From positions 32,001-96,000 of the forward strand of contig JAVZXS010000001.1 of NCBI GenBank assembly GCA_038886535.1: DNA of 64,000 nucleotides, in the 5' to 3' direction. Of the stretch, positions 12,001 to 27,000 are shown piece after piece (the first letter of the stretch is position 1; the number at the start of each line of letters is the position of its first letter). Made by a program: the position numbers. The stretch comes from Candidatus Micrarchaeia archaeon (lineage in GTDB: Archaea > Micrarchaeota > Micrarchaeia > CABMEP01).

Positions 12001-15000
12001 AAGATTGCACAACCTCATTATGTAGAGGTAAAGGCATATATGGCAGTTGGTTTTTCAAGGAAAAGAATAGGTTTGTCAGGTATGCCATATATGGAAGAGA
12101 TAAGAGAGTTTGCAGAGAAATTAGCAAAAGAAACAGGTTATATAGTAACAGATGAGCACAAAGATTCCAGAGTTGTTCTTTTGTCAAGGGATAAAGAAGC
12201 AGAAAAAAATAGATTTATTGATTTCTCAAAAATAAAATAAATATTATTTAACTAATTTTTCCAATGTTCCTATTAAACTATCAATAAGAAGATTATCTGC
12301 TCTTTTTATTATAGCAATCATTTTCCTTCTAGTAATTAAAGGAAATCTATTTTCTAATATCTCATCAATAGTTTTGATTTCTTTATCTTCAAAGATAGGT
12401 TTCCCATCTTTTCCTCTATTCTTTGCATTTTTGAATATTTTTATTATAATCTTTATATCATCTGCATTTAATGCAGCTAATTCTATTCCTGTTGATAAAC
12501 CTTGTACGAATACCACATCTCTTTCAACTCCATCCGCCATCAATCTTTTCACATGTGTGTATTCAGCAGGGGTGATCTTTCCTTTAATTAATGTAAGAAC
12601 TGACTTCAGAATATCGAGTCTTTTTCTAACCTCTTTTTTTGCATCTTTTTTTACATCTCTTTTTATTTTGTACATTTCAGCCATATGTTCACCTTAATTT
12701 AATATTCCATTTAATTTTTAATACTTTCTTGCAATCTTCTTTATTTCTACTTTTATATATAAATAGAAATTAATTTAATTCTATTTTACTAATGTATAAA
12801 ATATAATTATCAAAAACAGCACTTAATATGTGATATAATGGTAATAACTTTACAGGAAATGGTTGATCAATCAATAAGGACAGTTTTTACCACTGATTGG
12901 TTTGCAACTTCAATAATGGCACTCCTTCTATCCGCAGCTTTAAGTGCTTTGGCCTGGATGCTCTCTTCTGCATTTCAATCTAACGAATTGAAAGGATGGG
13001 CAAGAAAAGAATTAAGTGAATTTATAGTTACTGCATTAATTTTATTATTATCGGTCCCATTACTTATGACAATAACATCTATAACAATTGCATATGCAGG
13101 CAGTGATCCATTCTTTTTAGCAAAAAGTTTTTTAGATAAAGTCGAGGACGATTTGACATATACATATAGTTATCTTTTCGGGCTTAATATAGTTTATAGT
13201 GGGGCAAGCACACTTACGATTGATCTATCAAAAATACTATCCTGGCTTCTAACGATGGTTGGGTCGATTGCTGGACTAACAGCAGGCGGAGTCGGTGCGA
13301 TAGCTGGAGGTCTTGGTGGTTTTGGAATAGCTAATCTTGCAAAAGCAGTCACAGGTCTTAAATTAGGATTAAGTCTAGGAGCACCATTCAGTATGGTTGC
13401 AGATATTATTTCAAACATTTTATCTGGATTAGTGCCTTTCTTGTTAGCATTCTTTGTGCAGAAAGAACTTTTGTTTTTCATACAATATACAGCGCTCCCA
13501 GTGCTGTTCCCAACAGGGGTTCTTCTTCGTGCATTTCCACTTACTAGAAAAGCAGGTTCAACTTTGATTGCATTGTCACTAACATTATTTATAGCATATC
13601 CATTGACATTAGCATTTGCATCTAAGATGTATGACGATACAAAGGCTGCAATATCTACAGGACAATTAGATTATAGGCCTGAAAGAGTATCAATTCCATT
13701 TTTCAGACTTTTGCCTGATGCAGGAAGATATTATCTAAATCAATCTGATAGATTTCTTTGGGATGTATTTACTCCAATAAATTACTCAATTTGGGGAGAT
13801 GTTTCATGTAATGAAGTGGGTTCAATTTATGAATCAAGAAATCCCCAAAATCCAGAACCACCTCCAGAAGATTATATGTATTGGAAAATAACTGAAAGAA
13901 CAACTTATCCACTCTGTCCAAGTCCGTATGAGCCATGTAGAGAGGAAACAATGGAGGTTTCAAAATGCTATAGAAAGATTCAGAAAGGAGAAATTAATTC
14001 ATCTGGAAGTATTGAATACTTATTAAATAACGAGAATATATTTCCAAACAATAAGGTTCATTCAATAATATTGGTTACTAAGCAAACAAGAGAAGAAGGG
14101 GTTAGAATTGTTTCAGAAGAGGTTAGGTTTTATTTAGGTGATCCATGTCAAGAAAACTTATGGTCAATTTTATGGTGCAAGTTAAAGGGGACTGCAGGAG
14201 AATCTCCAATTAATGATGTTTCATACTTGAATCTGGCTGTAACTGCAAGTATTGGAGGAATAGAGGGTGCGGCAAGAGCAGTCGGTCAGATAACAGGTTA
14301 CACTGTAACAAATTATCTCGCTACTCCATATGCTGCAGGAATGGCATTTTATGGTTTAACTGATGTACTTCCTAATATTCTGTTTCCATATGTATTTACA
14401 ATATTTGTTTTCATAGTAATCATATTTGTGACAATCTCTACATTTAGATCTATATCAACAACATTAGGTGGAGAAACAAAGATAATTGAATTAGGCAGAT
14501 TGGTTTGAGTATGAGGGATTAAATGGTTGTAAGTACTTGCCAGGCTGTATTTGATGTATGGACGTATATAGGGGCAGCGTCAGCACTTGCAATCGCATTA
14601 ATCGCTTTTCTTTATGCTTTAGGAAGAATACTTACAAAGAGTGAGCTTGAGTCATTGGCAAAGAAAGAACTTTCAGAGTTTTTCATTTCATTTTTAATAG
14701 TAATAGGCGTTGCTGGTCTTTCTTCAATTATATGTCAGGTTACTCCATACATAGTTAAAGATGTAATAGGTTACGGAGATCAATTTTCAGCATCATATGA
14801 TTATCTTAATACACTTATTTATAAGAAAGGAATACCAGCCATACAAAGAGTTTGGACTTCCTCTATTATTTTGGATTCAATATCTTCTGTTGAAAGCAAG
14901 TTCAAAATTGGTAAATCTTCTAAATTGCTAGAGCAGGCAGAGGTAAAGGTCAAGCCAGCAGTCATATTAAAACCACTTAGTAAGATGCTTGGCATATTTA

Positions 15001-24000: not shown

Positions 24001-27000
24001 TTTAGCTCTTATTGTGAGAAGAATAATAAGTTTATATCTAACATTGCTTCAAAGTATTTTATAGATTCCTCCCTTTTCATGGCAACACTTCAGAAATTAG
24101 GTTATTATCAAAATCAGCTCCAGCAATATGAAAAGCACTGCGGAAATAAGTGCGAAGTTTATTCAAACCAGGAACAAAGAGATTTATGCTGTCTTGCAGA
24201 GACAATGGCATATTATCAAAATAAGACATTAAACAAGAAATCAGATATTGATGATATATTCCTTGCATATTTCATTGTGTATGGAACATTGAAGGGAGAG
24301 TCAGCTTATAAAGAAGAATTTAATAAATACTCACCTTCTGCAAACATGGAAAGAAAAAGCGAATCACCTATCATTTTATTAGAACCTTCCTCAAGTAATT
24401 CTAAATCAGTATATATGCAATCTTCATTCTGCGATCTTTATTTAACATTATGTAAAGAGTATCAAGATGTGTTCTATTGTATGTTATATGATCAGAATTG
24501 TAAATATCAAACCCCAACCATTCCTGAACAGCCTTCTTTGCCTACCCCACCTACGCCACCAACACAACCGCCAGAGCCTTCACAGCCACAACCTCCTCAA
24601 TCTCCGTCCGGAAGCGATCAACCTACTTATAATTTTGATAGTTCTATTTTACAAGTAATTAAGGATGCGGTTGCTGCAAGAGTAATTTGTGGACTAACTT
24701 AGATGAAATTAATTTTTTAGAAAAGAAGAAACAATAAACATCACTTTTTAGGAATAATTGTTCTCAATATTCCACTTACTTTTTCTTTTGCTTTTCTAAA
24801 TATACTTATTTTTTCTGGTACATAGTTCTCCCAGAATTTAAACACTTTTTCAGCGTCTTTCATATCGAAAAAGAATATTACAGAATCAAATGCAGAAGTT
24901 ACTGCAACAATGTTAATTCTTTGCCTCGCTAAAGGTGAGGTAAGCTTATTTAAAAGACCAGGTGTGGTGACCATTTCAGGTCCATTAACACTGATCATGC
25001 CCAATCCTCTTCTTACAGCTATACTTTCAAATGAACTTTCTGCAGCCTCCTCAGTAAGATATATAACTGCCTTATCACTTTCAGCCTCATCAATAAAAAG
25101 TATCACTTCTTTTTCTCCAGTTGATATAGCATAAATTTGTATGTTTTTTTCAACTAAAGGTTTGAGAAATTTAGTAAGAACAGAAGGCGTGATCCTTGAT
25201 CTATCACCCGTGATACTAATCGCTGCAATTGGCCTTTTATAATGCTTTATAGTCAACATATAAACACCATTGAATTTGATAAATAAATTAAGAGAATAAA
25301 GCTTTTATTCTCTTCTTTAAGCTTGGATGTGTGCTTAGGATTTCAAGTGGATTATCTGGTTCTTTTTCTATTGCTGCCAATAAAGCATTTGGATCATTTT
25401 TGCTAATTGCATTAGCAACACTATTTGAAACTATCTCATGCTCGGCCACATATAAAGTACTCAAAGATTCATTCGTGCTGCCTTGTGGAATATTGTATGT
25501 AATTTTTACCAATGCTCTTGCTAGAGGCATTGAATCTTTCATTATATAAGCACTGTGTGCATCTGCATAATATTCTCTTTGTCTTGATAGCCACAGTACA
25601 ACTAATTGTCCTAAAAGTCTTGCAAGAATTGCACCAACAAATACAGCGATTGGGTTTGGTTTATCGTCTCTTCCGCTAATAAGTGCAACTGCGAGATAGT
25701 ATAACAATACAGGTATAACACTTGCAATAGTCATTATTACAACATCATTGTGCTTAATATGACCTATTTCATGTGCAATTACCGCTTCAACCTCTTGTTT
25801 ATTTAATCTCTGTAATAAACCAGTGTGTATCGCAATTCCAGAGTCATTTTTTCCTCTTCCAAAAGCGAATGCATTAGGCACTTGGCTGTTTACAATATAT
25901 AACTTCGGCTTAGGTATTCCAGATTCTTTAGCAATTCTTTCAACAGCAGCATGCAATTCCGGAGCTTCATTAATACTTACTTCTCTTGCTCCACTTACCC
26001 ACTTAACAATTATAGGACCTAAGTACCATTGAATTCCTAATAATATTAAGCTGAAAAATAATACTACAAATATAGATATTTCATTTCCAGTCAGAAGCAT
26101 TATAACTCCAAGTATACCTGCAATTAAACCAAATACCAGAGCTGTTGAAATCCAAACTTGTAAATCAGGAGAGCCTTTTATCATAATATCACCTTTTAAT
26201 CAAAGATTTTATTTGATGTTTATTCTCTTTTTCTTTTCTTCTTCTTTTGAAGGTTCAACTTTTTTGATTATAACTTCTAAAACGCCATTATTATATTTAG
26301 CATCCGCTGTTTCTGGCTTTATCTTTGCTGGAAGCTCAAGTTTCTTGTAATATTTCCTCTCAGGCGTATCTACTTTTATTTCAAGTCCCTTTTCAGTTGC
26401 ATTGAGTTCGATATCTTCTTTTCTCACACCAGGCAATTCAGCTATTATCTTAATATCATTTTTTTCATTTATTATATCAACAAGCGGTTCTCTTTTTTCC
26501 TCTATTCCTTTAGGAGTAATCTGTGGCTTATCTCCGAATTCCTGTATTATCGGTTTTCCATCTGGTCCTATCGTTATAGAGAACCCTCTTACAAAGGATT
26601 TTCCTTCTCTGGCTCTTTTTTCTAGTTCTTCAAAGTCCTCAAATCCCCTTGTCATTTCTTCAAACATTCTTTCAATCATTCTTTCAAAATCATCATCGAA
26701 AAAACTGAATCTTCGTCTTTTAACCATTCTTCCACCACCAATATATATTACTTATATATATTTTTATTTTTATCTTTATAATATTTTTTATAAATTAGGT
26801 TAATAAATATCGGTGTTTTTATGAGTAATTGGATAGTTCACTCAATTATAGGAATAATTCTTGGCATATTATGTATAATTATAAATTCAGGCATGGATCA
26901 AAATGTACTATTTGCAGCAGTTATAGCAACAGTACTTGGCTCATTAATACCAGATATAGATCATAAAAGAAGCAAGATTAGAGGAATTTTCAGATGGGTT

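What a model noticed while it worked through the whole genome (the two positions that open the first line are those of the whole stretch)
12838..24702. Two operons of six tandem VirB6-like membrane paralogs with giant surface proteins
Twelve paralogous polytopic membrane proteins without any Pfam/NCBIfam hit sit as two runs of six (C1 g00042-47; C4:24764-32038 g00637-642), each run flanked by large secreted or anchored proteins (g00048, g00049; g00635 of 2791 aa, g00643). Fold prediction and, independently, gene order in other Micrarchaeota (runs of 6-7 such genes wedged between VirB2-like pilin genes and the VirB3/VirB4-like genes) say that they are VirB6/CedA-type channel subunits; I read the 6+6 expansion as two alternative or hetero-oligomeric translocation channels, each paired with its own giant adhesin, for contact with host cells. 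New: a phylum-specific, unannotated VirB6-like family, and an expansion larger than [...]
Evidence so far: All-vs-all blastp puts the 12 genes in one family, 20-25% identity; motif LPxGxxLRxFPxxRKxG, invariant G225, R229, P253 also over 31 homologs; 0 of 12 reach a Pfam family at E<0.2. Model of g00045 from the 12 paralogs: pLDDT 67.6; VIA-align over 48,161 PDB chains: ranks 1-2 are DotA of the Legionella Dot/Icm T4SS (9ngy, Z 8.0, 263 aligned) and TrwI/VirB6 of R388 (7o3v_F, Z 8.0, 220 of 261). Second model from 31 homologs (pLDDT 75.6, pTM 0.71, call 136) re-aligned to its Foldseek candidates: TrwI/VirB6 chains rank 1-2 (7o3v_G Z 8.8, 242 of 261 residues; 8rtd_L Z 8.1, 238 of 268), next row Z 6.5. 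Foldseek alone: nothing at E<0.001. ESM-Atlas: nearest clusters unnamed Micrarchaeota proteins (0. [...]
(Added by a program. Inside this text positions count along the whole contig: contig position 32,001 is position 1 of the stretch shown here. "Call 12" and the like, gene names such as g00115 and contig names such as C1 are that model's own, and its searches are not shown. The text may have been shortened before it was handed on; [...] marks where a part breaks off. The agent that wrote the report below was given it as the finding of a first reader that could run no searches.)

Follow-up and report, generated by a model that had tools for sequence, protein, structure and literature searches.

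The report
Six-paralog VirB6-like membrane platform, Micrarchaeota
Six neighbouring genes of a tiny host-dependent archaeon encode six old, distinct versions of an unnamed membrane protein that probably form the membrane base of an undescribed conjugation-like cell-surface machine, which may be how these cells exchange material with other cells.

Summary
Window 12838-20704 carries six tandem paralogs of a 5-TM membrane protein. Six more lie on contig C4. None matches Pfam or NCBIfam.

The VirB6/CedA-like reading is supported by two lines of evidence. A new, better model of a different paralog (pLDDT 89.5) has R388 TrwI/VirB6 as its top match among 48,161 solved chains (Z 9.1). In relatives, such arrays sit between VirB2-type pilin genes and a HerA/VirB4-type ATPase.

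No sequence-level link to VirB6 was found; hhalign gave 0.15% probability.

The main correction is that 6+6 is not a lineage-specific expansion. Position in the array predicts the clade across 17 six-gene arrays from 9 families, so this is an ancient, fixed-order six-gene set present twice here. That favours one hetero-oligomer of six different subunits.

The family (178 of 201 genomes) and the ATPase (177 of 201) share almost the same distribution.

The flanking proteins in the window are not giant adhesins. One is a bitopic protein with a likely cytoplasmic coiled coil. The other is a membrane-anchored protein with a glycoside-hydrolase-like TIM barrel.

This scan has already noted the same six-gene set in at least 8 other genomes. 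My literature searches found no paper describing it.

The parts
12685..12837 (+). Upstream intergenic region with A/T-rich, TATA-box-like stretches about 30-40 and 75-85 bases before the first start codon. Probable promoter of the operon; not tested.
   Evidence: Direct reading. The bacterial-type promoter scan is at chance level, 68 found against 65.8 expected.
12838..14508 (+). Paralog 1 (position-1 subfamily), 556 aa. 5-TM core with a 244-residue outside loop between TM4 and TM5. C-terminal tail ...GRLV.
   Evidence: Position-1 clade.
14523..15425 (+). Paralog 2 (position-2 subfamily), 300 aa, the minimal core. It is the only subfamily without the conserved C-terminal tail (0 of 17 arrays). 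This is the protein that was modelled.
15447..16634 (+). Paralog 3 (position-3 subfamily), 395 aa. Tail GDxxIAGLSKLI, present in 17 of 17 arrays.
16658..17797 (+). Paralog 4 (position-4 subfamily), 379 aa, with a signal-peptide-like N-terminus.
   Evidence: Position 4 is the one label that is not a single clade (4 changes).
17887..19455 (+). Paralog 5 (position-5 subfamily), 522 aa. Signal-peptide-like N-terminus. The 202-residue outside loop holds 20 cysteines in four GxxCxxxx[DE]CxSxxC-type repeats.
   Evidence: Repeats read directly.
19490..20704 (+). Paralog 6 (position-6 subfamily), 404 aa. Tail ...EGVVKLI.
20785..22548 (+). 587-aa bitopic membrane protein. It has an N-terminal hydrophobic segment, an outside domain of about 120 residues, a TM at 154-181, and then 406 residues that are K/E-rich, cysteine-free and probably a cytoplasmic coiled coil. 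It belongs to a family that recurs beside free-standing six-gene arrays.
   Evidence: No Pfam family. The Atlas gave nothing above chance.
22570..24702 (+). 710-aa membrane-anchored (lipobox-like LFGC) extracellular protein with 22 cysteines. The core, about residues 145-470, is a (beta/alpha)8 barrel like clan GH-A glycoside hydrolases. A helical domain and a proline-rich linker follow. Residues 258-380 resemble the C-terminal part of the 2791-aa protein on C4.

Best explanation
The six genes encode six ancient, non-interchangeable subunits of the polytopic membrane platform of a chromosomal, phylum-wide machine of Micrarchaeota. That machine is related to type IV secretion and to the archaeal Ced/Ted systems. 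The platform is the counterpart of VirB6 / CedA-CedE / TedA.

The other parts of the machine are VirB2-type pilins, one or two 2-TM proteins, a HerA/VirB4-superfamily ATPase and three further conserved proteins. In this genome they lie on contig C2 without any platform gene beside them. They must therefore work in trans with the window's array, the C4 array, or both.

Each subunit has its N-terminus outside, five TM helices, two outside loops that carry lineage-specific inserts, a short basic inside loop (the LRxFPxxRKxG motif) and an inside C-terminal tail.

I infer that one copy of each of the six assembles into a single hetero-oligomer at the foot of the pilus or channel. The long helices would project beyond the membrane as in the TrwI/VirB6 stalk base, and the inside loop and tails would face the 2-TM proteins and the ATPase.

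The two downstream genes are accessory parts of this cassette type. One is a bitopic coiled-coil protein. The other is an anchored glycoside-hydrolase-like protein that may open a glycan layer locally, as VirB1 does in bacteria.

Shown: family, topology sketch, fold ranking, gene order in relatives, fixed order and orthology, co-distribution, purifying selection.
Inferred: homology to VirB6, hetero-oligomer, contacts, cargo, and the roles of the two flanking proteins.
For: 1. Context. Of 20 loci fetched around arrays, 5 hold the 2-TM gene(s) and the ATPase next to family members. Three of these also have pilins on the other side (L043, L046, L060). L049 has four family genes, two 2-TM genes and the ATPase. 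L061 has the minimal order pilin, one family gene, 2-TM gene, ATPase. Of 14 loci fetched around the main ATPase, 4 (L065, L066, L067, L077) have exactly six family genes directly upstream of two 2-TM genes and the ATPase.

2. The partners are T4SS-type by sequence. The C2 pilins pass the Pfam cut-offs of PF18895 (27.2 against 26.6 bits) and PF04956 (28.7 against 27.9). Their profile's only significant PDB hit is the R388 pilin TrwL (E 2.3e-4). The ATPase matches DUF87/HerA (4e-16), AAA_10 and the TraG P-loop domain, and it matches HerA and VirB4 chains.

3. Fold. The AlphaFold2 model of paralog 2 was built from 109 sequences (pLDDT 89.5, pTM 0.81). Of 48,161 representative chains, 7o3v_F (TrwI/VirB6) is rank 1 and the only chain with Z >= 8 (Z 9.1, rmsd 7.1, 228 of 261 residues, model 1-295). 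The rows up to rank 5 between it and DotA align only 63-102 residues. DotA of the Dot/Icm T4SS is rank 6 (Z 7.5, 264 aligned). In Foldseek, ranks 1, 2, 4, 5 and 7 of 350,542 chains are TrwI chains. In the re-alignment, ranks 1-3 are TrwI entries (Z 9.1, 8.9, 8.7), and the next row is 7.9.

4. Topology. N-terminus out, 5 TM, C-terminus in, with large outside loops and 20 Cys in one loop. This agrees with the 5-TM models quoted for VirB6 and CedE (passages).

5. Fixed six-gene set. For 102 proteins of 17 six-gene arrays (15 genomes, 9 families), the position label needs 6 changes on the tree (minimum 5). The shuffled mean is 66.3, and 0 of 200 shuffles were as low. Positions 2, 3, 5 and 6 are each one side of a branch (SH-aLRT 92, 88, 93, 97) (same pattern).

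6. Position-specific tails. 0 of 17 position-2 proteins carry the tail, against 69 of 85 of the others.

7. Co-distribution. The family is in 178 of 201 genomes and the ATPase in 177 of 201, with the same pattern by family. Only G145 differs.

8. All six genes are under purifying selection, dN/dS 0.05-0.14.
Against: There is no sequence-level link to VirB6.
- The family profile against all PDB sequences gives a best E of 2.6, and not to VirB6.
- hhalign against a profile of 38 TrwI relatives gives probability 0.15%. That profile is narrow, with all members at least 50% identical to TrwI.
- 0 of 109 members hit PF04610.

The fold evidence is not decisive alone. Foldseek E-values are 0.07 or worse and TM-scores are about 0.35. 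The tool's own note says Z below about 13 can arise by chance for helical bundles.

In this genome neither array is next to the ATPase. In 10 of 14 ATPase-centred loci, no family gene lies within the stretch fetched.

Kin are not independent. The adjacency comes from families f3, f4 and f7, plus the one-gene loci L061 and L078.

R388 VirB6 is a homo-pentamer (passages), so six different subunits have no structural precedent.

The 2-TM protein shows no similarity to VirB4 (hhalign 0.18%) or to any PDB sequence.
Confidence: 0.7

Rival explanations
1. The six proteins are VirB6-like but do not form one complex. Each would make its own homo-oligomeric channel or pilus base, giving alternative conduits for different partners or cargos. 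This is the first reader's 'alternative channels', as has been proposed for the five RvhB6 paralogs of Rickettsia.
For: The outside loops differ greatly between positions and lineages, from 41 to 244 residues in the window and up to 1380-aa proteins elsewhere. VirB6 of R388 is a homo-oligomer (passages). The Rickettsia paper suggests multiple diverse channels (passages). Loci with a single family gene exist (L061, L078).
Against: Very small genomes keep all six, in the same order, as six orthologous lines across 9 families. Position-specific conserved tails and motifs argue for six different fixed roles. Selection on all six is similar. CedA and CedE of Saccharolobus are both needed for import, so they are not redundant (abstract and passages).
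Confidence: 0.15
2. The family is not related to VirB6/CedA. It would be a Micrarchaeota-specific membrane protein, perhaps derived from the pilin, that only shares a long-helix bundle by chance. It could serve another step of the same machine, such as pilin insertion, or anchoring to the S-layer.
For: No sequence link to VirB6. Z 9.1 lies within the range the tool warns about for helical proteins. The only weak profile signal is to the cognate pilins: hhalign probability 31%, E 5e-4, over 50 columns covering TM1-loop-TM2. The family profile's first hit outside the family is a pilin.
Against: The family occupies the slot that VirB6/CedA/TedA holds in minimal pilin-channel-ATPase loci. Similarity of the N-terminal part to the cognate pilin is itself reported for CedA and for VirB6 (passages of PMC9905601). 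An Atlas neighbour cluster carries the Pfam CedA1 family in 23% of its members (score 0.90, a lead only).
Confidence: 0.15
3. In this genome the two free-standing cassettes work without the ATPase machine. They would act as export, anchoring or contact modules for the large proteins encoded beside them.
For: Both arrays are unlinked to the ATPase locus. A family of bitopic proteins of 587-1654 aa recurs beside free-standing arrays. It has 9 linked members from six genomes, including the window's 587-aa protein. Very large proteins flank many arrays.
Against: The ATPase locus of this genome has pilins, a 2-TM gene and the ATPase but no platform gene of its own. The family and the ATPase are gained and lost together. 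Free-standing and ATPase-linked arrays are the same six orthologous lines. The accessory proteins are not conserved; the 710-aa protein has only 9 relatives.
Confidence: 0.1

Closest known systems
Ced system of Sulfolobales (CedA with its paralog CedE, pilin CedA1, ATPases CedB/CedD) and Ted system of Thermoproteales (TedA, TedC, TedB). Sources: PMC9905601 (passages) and PMC11868833 (abstract and passages).
   Same: An archaeal, chromosomal, T4SS-derived set made of a VirB2-like pilin, a polytopic 5-TM VirB6-like protein and a HerA/VirB4-type ATPase. The components are not recognisable by plain sequence search between systems. Two non-redundant VirB6-like paralogs (CedA and CedE) exist in one system. 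The N-terminal part of the channel protein resembles the pilin.
   Different: Here there are six paralogs in a fixed order rather than one or two, often in two or more cassettes per genome. The hosts are DPANN archaea with reduced genomes. The extra conserved partners differ (2-TM proteins and proteins of about 160, 250 and 870 aa). Function in DNA import is unknown. I had no CedA, CedE or TedA sequence to compare, so membership is untested.
TrwI/VirB6 of plasmid R388 (PDB 7o3v, 8rt9, 8rtd; Pfam TrbL PF04610). Source: PMC9259494 (passages).
   Same: Best structural match over nearly the full length. Long alpha-helices, with N-terminal helices in the membrane. Encoded beside a VirB2 pilin and a VirB4-type ATPase.
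   Different: No sequence or profile similarity. TrwI is a homo-pentamer carrying VirB5. No VirB5, VirB8, VirB9, VirB10 or outer-membrane parts are expected or seen here.
Rvh type IV system of Rickettsiales with five tandem VirB6 paralogs (RvhB6a-e). Source: PMC2653234 (passages).
   Same: A tandem array of very divergent VirB6-type paralogs (about 80% divergence), with large variable extensions, conserved across a clade of host-dependent organisms with reduced genomes, next to virB3-virB4.
   Different: Those proteins match PF04610 and are bacterial. There are five (four in relatives) rather than six. The origin is independent.
Type IV secretion system of Patescibacteria (PMC12102498, passages) and the VirB4-domain giant proteins of Nanohaloarchaeota (PMC10266531, passages).
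   Same: Chromosomal T4SS-like genes are kept in ultra-small episymbionts. In one Patescibacterium virB6 is reported as essential for growth. In nanohaloarchaea giant surface proteins are tied to VirB4-type ATPases.
   Different: The lineages and architectures differ, and neither has a six-paralog platform.

Membership tests
VirB6/TrbL (Pfam PF04610) | Match to the family's sequence model | tested here: not met
   0 of 109 members match PF04610 even at E 10. No match in the whole genome. hhalign against 38 TrwI relatives gives probability 0.15%. The family profile against PDB sequences does not reach VirB6.
VirB6/TrbL (Pfam PF04610) | Fold like solved VirB6 (TrwI) | tested here: inconclusive
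   TrwI is rank 1 of 48,161 chains (Z 9.1, 228 of 261 residues). TrwI entries take ranks 1-3 in the re-alignment and ranks 1, 2, 4, 5 and 7 in Foldseek. However, Foldseek E is 0.07, TM-score about 0.35, and Z is within the range helical proteins can reach by chance.
VirB6/TrbL (Pfam PF04610) | Polytopic membrane protein with about 5 TM helices, N-terminus outside, large outside loop, C-terminus inside | tested here: met
   Hydropathy and charge counts for all six paralogs, and helices of the model. This is a sketch, not a dedicated topology predictor.
VirB6/TrbL (Pfam PF04610) | Encoded with a VirB2-type pilin and a VirB4-type ATPase | tested here: met
   Met in relatives: L043, L046, L049, L060, L061, L065, L066, L067, L077, L078. 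Not met in this genome, where the pilin-ATPase locus is on C2. Co-distribution is 178 against 177 of 201 genomes.
VirB6/TrbL (Pfam PF04610) | Oligomer at the base of the pilus or stalk | not testable with these tools
   All six chains together exceed the size limit of the complex predictor.
CedA/CedE/TedA (archaeal VirB6-like channel proteins) | Profile similarity to CedA, CedE or TedA | not tested
   No tool gave me a CedA, CedE or TedA sequence. Pfam PF27251 (CedA1) is not in the local library. Lead only: an Atlas neighbour cluster (score 0.90) carries PF27251 in 23% of 78 members.
CedA/CedE/TedA (archaeal VirB6-like channel proteins) | N-terminal region similar to the cognate pilin (reported in PMC9905601; passages) | tested here: inconclusive
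   hhalign of the family against 9 cognate pilins: probability 31%, E 5e-4, 50 columns covering TM1-loop-TM2. A pilin is the first hit outside the family for the family profile (E 0.0016 and 0.00044).
Clan GH-A glycoside hydrolases (for the 710-aa protein) | (beta/alpha)8 barrel fold | tested here: met
   Model pLDDT 73.4, with the core mostly above 85. 187 Foldseek matches at E <= 0.001. The best are GH10 xylanases (E 2.3e-6, probability 1.00), and GH26 and GH53 also appear.
Clan GH-A glycoside hydrolases (for the 710-aa protein) | Two catalytic glutamates after strands 4 and 7 | not tested
   No residue-level structural alignment was made, and no Pfam family matches.

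The most novel reading that the evidence does not exclude
The six subunits would build an asymmetric hetero-oligomeric base: five positions that commonly carry the C-terminal tail plus the tail-less position 2. Such a base would suit the one-start, five-stranded helical symmetry reported for archaeal conjugation-type pili.

This machine would be the Micrarchaeal side of the intercellular nanotubes seen by cryo-tomography. In that work an unidentified barrel about 21 nm wide sits in the symbiont envelope. The machine would move host-derived material, not only DNA, into the symbiont. The two cassette types of this genome would be exchangeable contact modules on one motor.
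Probability: 0.15. Interest if true: 0.9.

Novelty: new variant of a known kind. Interest (0 to 1): 0.75.

Why it matters
DPANN archaea depend on other cells, but the molecules that make the contact are mostly unknown. Cryo-tomography of a Micrarchaeon with its host shows nanotubes and a docking barrel of unknown composition (bioRxiv 10.1101/2024.05.20.594898, abstract and passages).

This is a chromosomal machine kept by about nine in ten genomes sampled. Its ATPase is highly conserved, at 52-66% identity among the full-length matches listed. That makes it a concrete candidate for the contact apparatus.

A platform of six distinct VirB6-like subunits would be a new architecture for the type IV secretion and Ced family. 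It would extend the family of domesticated conjugation machines to a third archaeal lineage.

It would also give a name and a working hypothesis to a family seen in 3,922 clusters (E <= 0.001). The 9 named database relatives of paralog 2 listed are all labelled 'hypothetical protein'.

Tried and rejected
Complex prediction. Paralog 2 with paralog 3, each with 13 paired orthologs, gave no verdict: score 0.23 against a mark of 0.32, and controls were not run. This says nothing either way.

Sequence links that failed:
- Family profile against PDB sequences.
- hhalign against TrwI relatives.
- Pfam at E 10 on 109 members.
- PF04610 in the genome.
- NCBIfam.

The 2-TM protein gave nothing against R388 VirB4 or against PDB sequences. 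I therefore do not call it VirB3 or a VirB4 N-domain.

PF27251 is not in the local Pfam library.

The family's range outside the phylum was therefore not tested. The only lead is the Atlas taxa, Archaea 99-100% and mostly Microcaldota.

Expression: no RNA holder was listed for the operon.

The Atlas search for the 587-aa protein gave scores of 0.80 or less, which is chance level.

The bacterial promoter and terminator scan was at chance level, as expected for an archaeon.

The two other AAA_10 ATPases of the bin (C7, C8) were rejected as partners. They sit in bacterial F-type transfer operons with TraC, TraU, TraN, TraF, TraV, TraL, TrbI, secretins and DsbC. Those contigs correlate less well in tetranucleotide use with C1 (0.95 and 0.92, against 0.995-0.996 for C2-C5).

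Rows left out of the trees: arrays in which my ORF caller found fewer than six members (L043, L048, L049, L051, L052, L053, L055, L060) and the single-gene locus L078. L061 was in the first tree only.

The scan over the sequence of paralog 6 in earlier findings found nothing.

Full report
WHAT IS THERE

The window is G000:C1:32001-96000 of a 1.14-Mb, 40-contig bin, 88% complete. Earlier notes of this scan and source names of close relatives place it in Micrarchaeota, also called Microcaldota, from hot springs.

At 12838-24702 eight ORFs follow each other on the + strand, with gaps of 14-89 bases. The flanking genes are archaeal housekeeping genes, so the operon is chromosomal: SRP54, tRNA intron endonuclease, a wyosine radical-SAM enzyme, an ACT protein and an M48 peptidase. 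The same neighbours flank it in the same-genus genome G093 (L054).

blastp against all 1,614 ORFs of 80 aa or more links the first six ORFs to six ORFs on C4:24764-32038. A profile of the 12 finds exactly these 12, each at E <= 6e-78. The next hit is a pilin at E 0.0016. Identity to the first sequence is 18-25%. G227 and P255 are invariant, and the motif LPxGxxLRxFPxxRKxG is shared.

Pfam and NCBIfam give no credible hit. Thirteen database relatives of paralog 2 were listed; none has a precomputed Pfam domain, and the nine that carry a source name are all called 'hypothetical protein'. Against G093 all eight genes show dN/dS of 0.05-0.15.

THE REST OF THE MACHINE IN THIS GENOME

Three ORFs in the bin match AAA_10. 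Two lie on C7 and C8 inside bacterial F-type transfer operons with TraC, TraU, TraN, TraF, TrbC, TraV, TraL, TrbI, secretins and DsbC. Those contigs fit C1's tetranucleotide usage less well: 0.95 and 0.92, against 0.995-0.996 for C2-C5. I treat them as probably misbinned bacterial DNA and not as partners.

The third ATPase is on C2, a core contig. There, three small genes precede a 273-aa protein with two N-terminal TM helices, a 523-aa ATPase, and proteins of 160, 248 and 873 aa.
- The small genes encode a signal peptide plus two helices. They pass the Pfam cut-offs for T4SS_pilin or TrbC/VirB2.
- As a profile, the pilins hit only the R388 pilin TrwL in the PDB (E 2.3e-4).
- The ATPase matches DUF87/HerA, AAA_10 and the TraG P-loop domain. 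Among solved chains it matches HerA proteins and a VirB4.

No member of the six-gene family lies at this locus.

GENE ORDER ELSEWHERE

The 12-sequence profile matches 178 of 201 sampled genomes of the phylum, usually many times per genome. These tallies include two unpublished genomes, G197 and G029.

I fetched 20 loci around arrays and annotated them with the family profile and the C2 proteins.
- In L043, L046 and L060 the family genes lie between pilin genes and the 2-TM gene(s) plus ATPase.
- L049 has four family genes, then two 2-TM genes and the ATPase.
- L061 has the minimal order pilin, one family gene, 2-TM gene, ATPase.
- The other 15 loci are free-standing arrays.

I then fetched 14 loci around the main ATPase of other genomes, plus one around a single family gene.
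- In 4 of the 14 (L065, L066, L067, L077; families f3 and f4), exactly six family genes sit directly upstream of two 2-TM genes, the ATPase and the 160/248/873-type genes.
- In the other 10, no family gene lies in the stretch fetched.
- L078 shows pilin, one family gene, 2-TM gene.

The ATPase itself is in 177 of 201 genomes, with the same presence and absence by family as the six-gene family. Both are missing from f10, f15, f16, f17, f19, f21 and f25, and both are present in 2 of 10 genomes of f11. Only one genome (G145, 89% complete) has the family without the ATPase. Related genomes are not independent, so this pattern reflects a handful of gains or losses, not 200 observations.

THE SIX ARE A FIXED, ANCIENT SET

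Six is the commonest array size: 13 of the 22 array sets listed, and 4 more. Some of the shorter ones are artefacts of my ORF caller.

A maximum-likelihood tree was built of 78 proteins from 13 six-gene arrays plus L061. Positions 1, 2, 3, 5 and 6 each fall on one side of a branch (SH-aLRT 96, 91, 95, 94, 99). Position 4 needs 4 changes.

With 102 proteins from 17 arrays (15 genomes, 9 families), the position label needs 6 changes in all, where 5 is the minimum. The shuffled mean is 66.3, and 0 of 200 shuffles were as low. Near-copies inflate this somewhat: G093 against the window, and G007 against G052. The pattern nonetheless holds across families.

Further position-specific features:
- Each position has its own conserved C-terminal tail.
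- Position 2 never has the tail (0 of 17), while 69 of 85 proteins at the other positions do.
- Position 2 is always among the shortest.

Within each position clade the window's genes group with G093 and G051. The C4 genes group with a free-standing array of G039 in positions 1, 2, 3 and 5. This genome's 6+6 is therefore two old cassette types, not a recent burst.

This pattern is what an obligate hetero-oligomer predicts: six orthologous lines kept together in the same order in genomes of about 1 Mb. It is weak evidence for stoichiometry and gives no evidence for a ring.

FOLD AND TOPOLOGY

Hydropathy and charge give N-terminus out, five TM helices and C-terminus in. A short basic loop lies inside, and two large loops lie outside. 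The second outside loop holds 20 cysteines in paralog 5.

- Foldseek finds nothing at E <= 0.001, but ranks 1, 2, 4, 5 and 7 of 350,542 chains are TrwI/VirB6 (E 0.069-0.30, TM about 0.3-0.35).
- The Foldseek-independent search of 48,161 chains puts 7o3v_F first, and it is the only chain at Z >= 8 (Z 9.1, rmsd 7.1, 228 of 261 residues). The only other near-full-length match in the top rows is DotA of the Dot/Icm system (Z 7.5, 264 residues).
- Re-alignment of the Foldseek candidates gives three TrwI entries first (Z 9.1, 8.9, 8.7). A dynein stalk follows at 7.9.

The tool warns that helical proteins can reach such Z by chance, so the fold alone would not convince. Taken together with the gene order, it is the most economical reading.

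The R388 paper describes VirB6 as seven long helices forming a pentameric stalk base on which the pilus is thought to grow (passages).

SEQUENCE-LEVEL TESTS

All direct tests against VirB6 failed. The TrwI profile I could build was narrow, with all members at least 50% identical.

The family's TM1-loop-TM2 region aligns weakly with the cognate pilins (hhalign probability 31%, E 5e-4). Beltran et al. report the same kind of relation for CedA with CedA1 and for VirB6 with VirB2 (passages).

The ESM Atlas places next to paralog 2 two unnamed archaeal clusters (scores 0.95 and 0.93) and one 293-aa cluster in which 23% of members carry the new Pfam family CedA1 (score 0.90). This is a lead that I could not test. 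I had no CedA, CedE or TedA sequence.

THE FLANKING PROTEINS

The 587-aa protein has an N-terminal hydrophobic segment, an outside domain of about 120 residues, one TM helix, and 406 K/E-rich, cysteine-free residues that I read as a cytoplasmic coiled coil. blastp links it to the 1042-aa protein beside the C4 array and to proteins of 836-1654 aa beside other free-standing arrays. The cluster has nine members including itself, from six genomes in five families, plus a weaker match in L044. The shared part is the TM helix and about 100 residues after it. No Pfam family matches any of them.

The 710-aa protein has a lipobox-like N-terminus and 22 cysteines. It has only 9 relatives in the large protein collection. 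Its model (pLDDT 73.4, core mostly above 85) gives 187 Foldseek matches at E <= 0.001 to GH10, GH26 and GH53 TIM-barrel hydrolases, the best at E 2.3e-6. Its residues 258-380 resemble the C-terminal part of the 2791-aa C4 protein (E 2e-5). That protein also has weak cupredoxin-like and cysteine-rich matches.

'Giant adhesins' is therefore not a good description of the window's two proteins. An envelope-glycan hydrolase next to a T4SS-like platform recalls VirB1, but I did not check catalytic residues.

WHAT IS KNOWN

Seven full-text searches found no paper on a VirB6-like family or a T4SS-like machine in Micrarchaeota. The term sets were:
- Micrarchaeota + VirB4
- CedA + VirB6 + archaea
- DPANN + VirB6
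- DPANN + type IV secretion + VirB2 + pilin
- Micrarchaeota + type IV secretion
- DPANN + CedB
- Microcaldus + DPANN + gene cluster

The library lacks most subscription journals, and I opened no supplementary file.

The nearest described systems are:
- Ced and Ted (PMC9905601).
- CedE, a 5-TM paralog of CedA that is also required for DNA import, and the split VirB4-like pair CedB/CedD (PMC11868833, abstract and passages).
- The five tandem RvhB6 paralogs of Rickettsia (PMC2653234).
- The T4SS of Patescibacteria (PMC12102498).
- The VirB4-domain giant proteins of nanohaloarchaea (PMC10266531).

A preprint on a Micrarchaeon-host co-culture reports nanotubes of 6.7 nm and an unidentified 21-nm barrel in the symbiont envelope. 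Archaeal and bacterial conjugation pili are 7.4-8.7 nm wide and built of five-start strands, and the archaeal ones have one-start symmetry (passages). Any link between these structures and the genes here is speculation.

EARLIER NOTES OF THIS SCAN

This scan has described the same six-gene set in at least 8 other genomes, with the same reading. I reached the fixed-order result from my own trees before reading those notes. They pointed me to read CedE and CedD more closely.

VERDICT

The VirB6/CedA-like role is likely (about 0.7), resting on context, fold rank, topology and co-distribution, and not on sequence.

The new element is an ancient, fixed set of six subunits, probably one hetero-oligomeric platform. 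This genome holds two cassette types unlinked to the motor.

Cargo, stoichiometry and the roles of the flanking proteins remain open.

Noticed in passing
G000:C7:10001-30000 (L011) and G000:C8:4001-24000 (L010): Two contigs of the bin carry bacterial F-type conjugation operons (TraC, TraU, TraN, TraF, TrbC, TraV, TraL, TrbI, secretins, DsbC). Their tetranucleotide correlation with C1 is lower than that of C2-C5. They are probably misbinned bacterial DNA, and anyone looking for 'the VirB4 of this genome' could be misled by them.
   Followed up: partly
window 18694-19299 (residues 270-471 of the 522-aa paralog): The second outside loop of paralog 5 holds 20 cysteines in four repeats of a GxxCxxxx[DE]CxSxxC-type module. 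Weak Dickkopf/colipase-like Pfam hits appear here and in the 2791-aa C4 protein.
   Followed up: no
L048:15019-16332 (G039) and L053:4636-5946 (G199): In two genomes of one genus, a T2SSE-family ATPase (PF00437, the family of VirB11, PilB and FlaI; E 5.7e-36 for the L048 protein, the only one of the two scanned) lies directly downstream of a family array. Earlier notes of the scan saw the same thing in other genomes.
   Followed up: no
L061:8183-11699 (G063) and L078:8397-10436 (G146): These are minimal loci with one pilin gene, one family gene and one 2-TM gene; L061 also has a divergent 443-aa ATPase. G063 has the main ATPase elsewhere as well, so this may be a second, simpler system, possibly mobile.
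   Followed up: no
L012:9886-13786 (G000:C2) and the same genes in L064-L077: Three further genes almost always follow the ATPase: a membrane protein of about 160 aa, a coiled-coil protein of about 250 aa with a weak EAP30/Vps36-like match, and a membrane protein of about 800-900 aa. They are probably parts of the same machine.
   Followed up: no
L046:1484-4627 (G006): My ORF caller gives the ATPase here as a 1047-aa ORF, about twice the usual length. It may be a fusion or a start-codon artefact.
   Followed up: no
window 39056-47537 and 50046-56135: The window holds further large proteins without Pfam families (462, 524, 1239, 374 and 1111 aa). Beside them are a transglutaminase-like protein with a CarboxypepD_reg domain and a CARDB-domain protein. 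These are probably more surface proteins.
   Followed up: no
window 10769-11173 (-) and 35859-36269 (+): Two paralogs of the UPF0047 family lie within 25 kb of each other.
   Followed up: no
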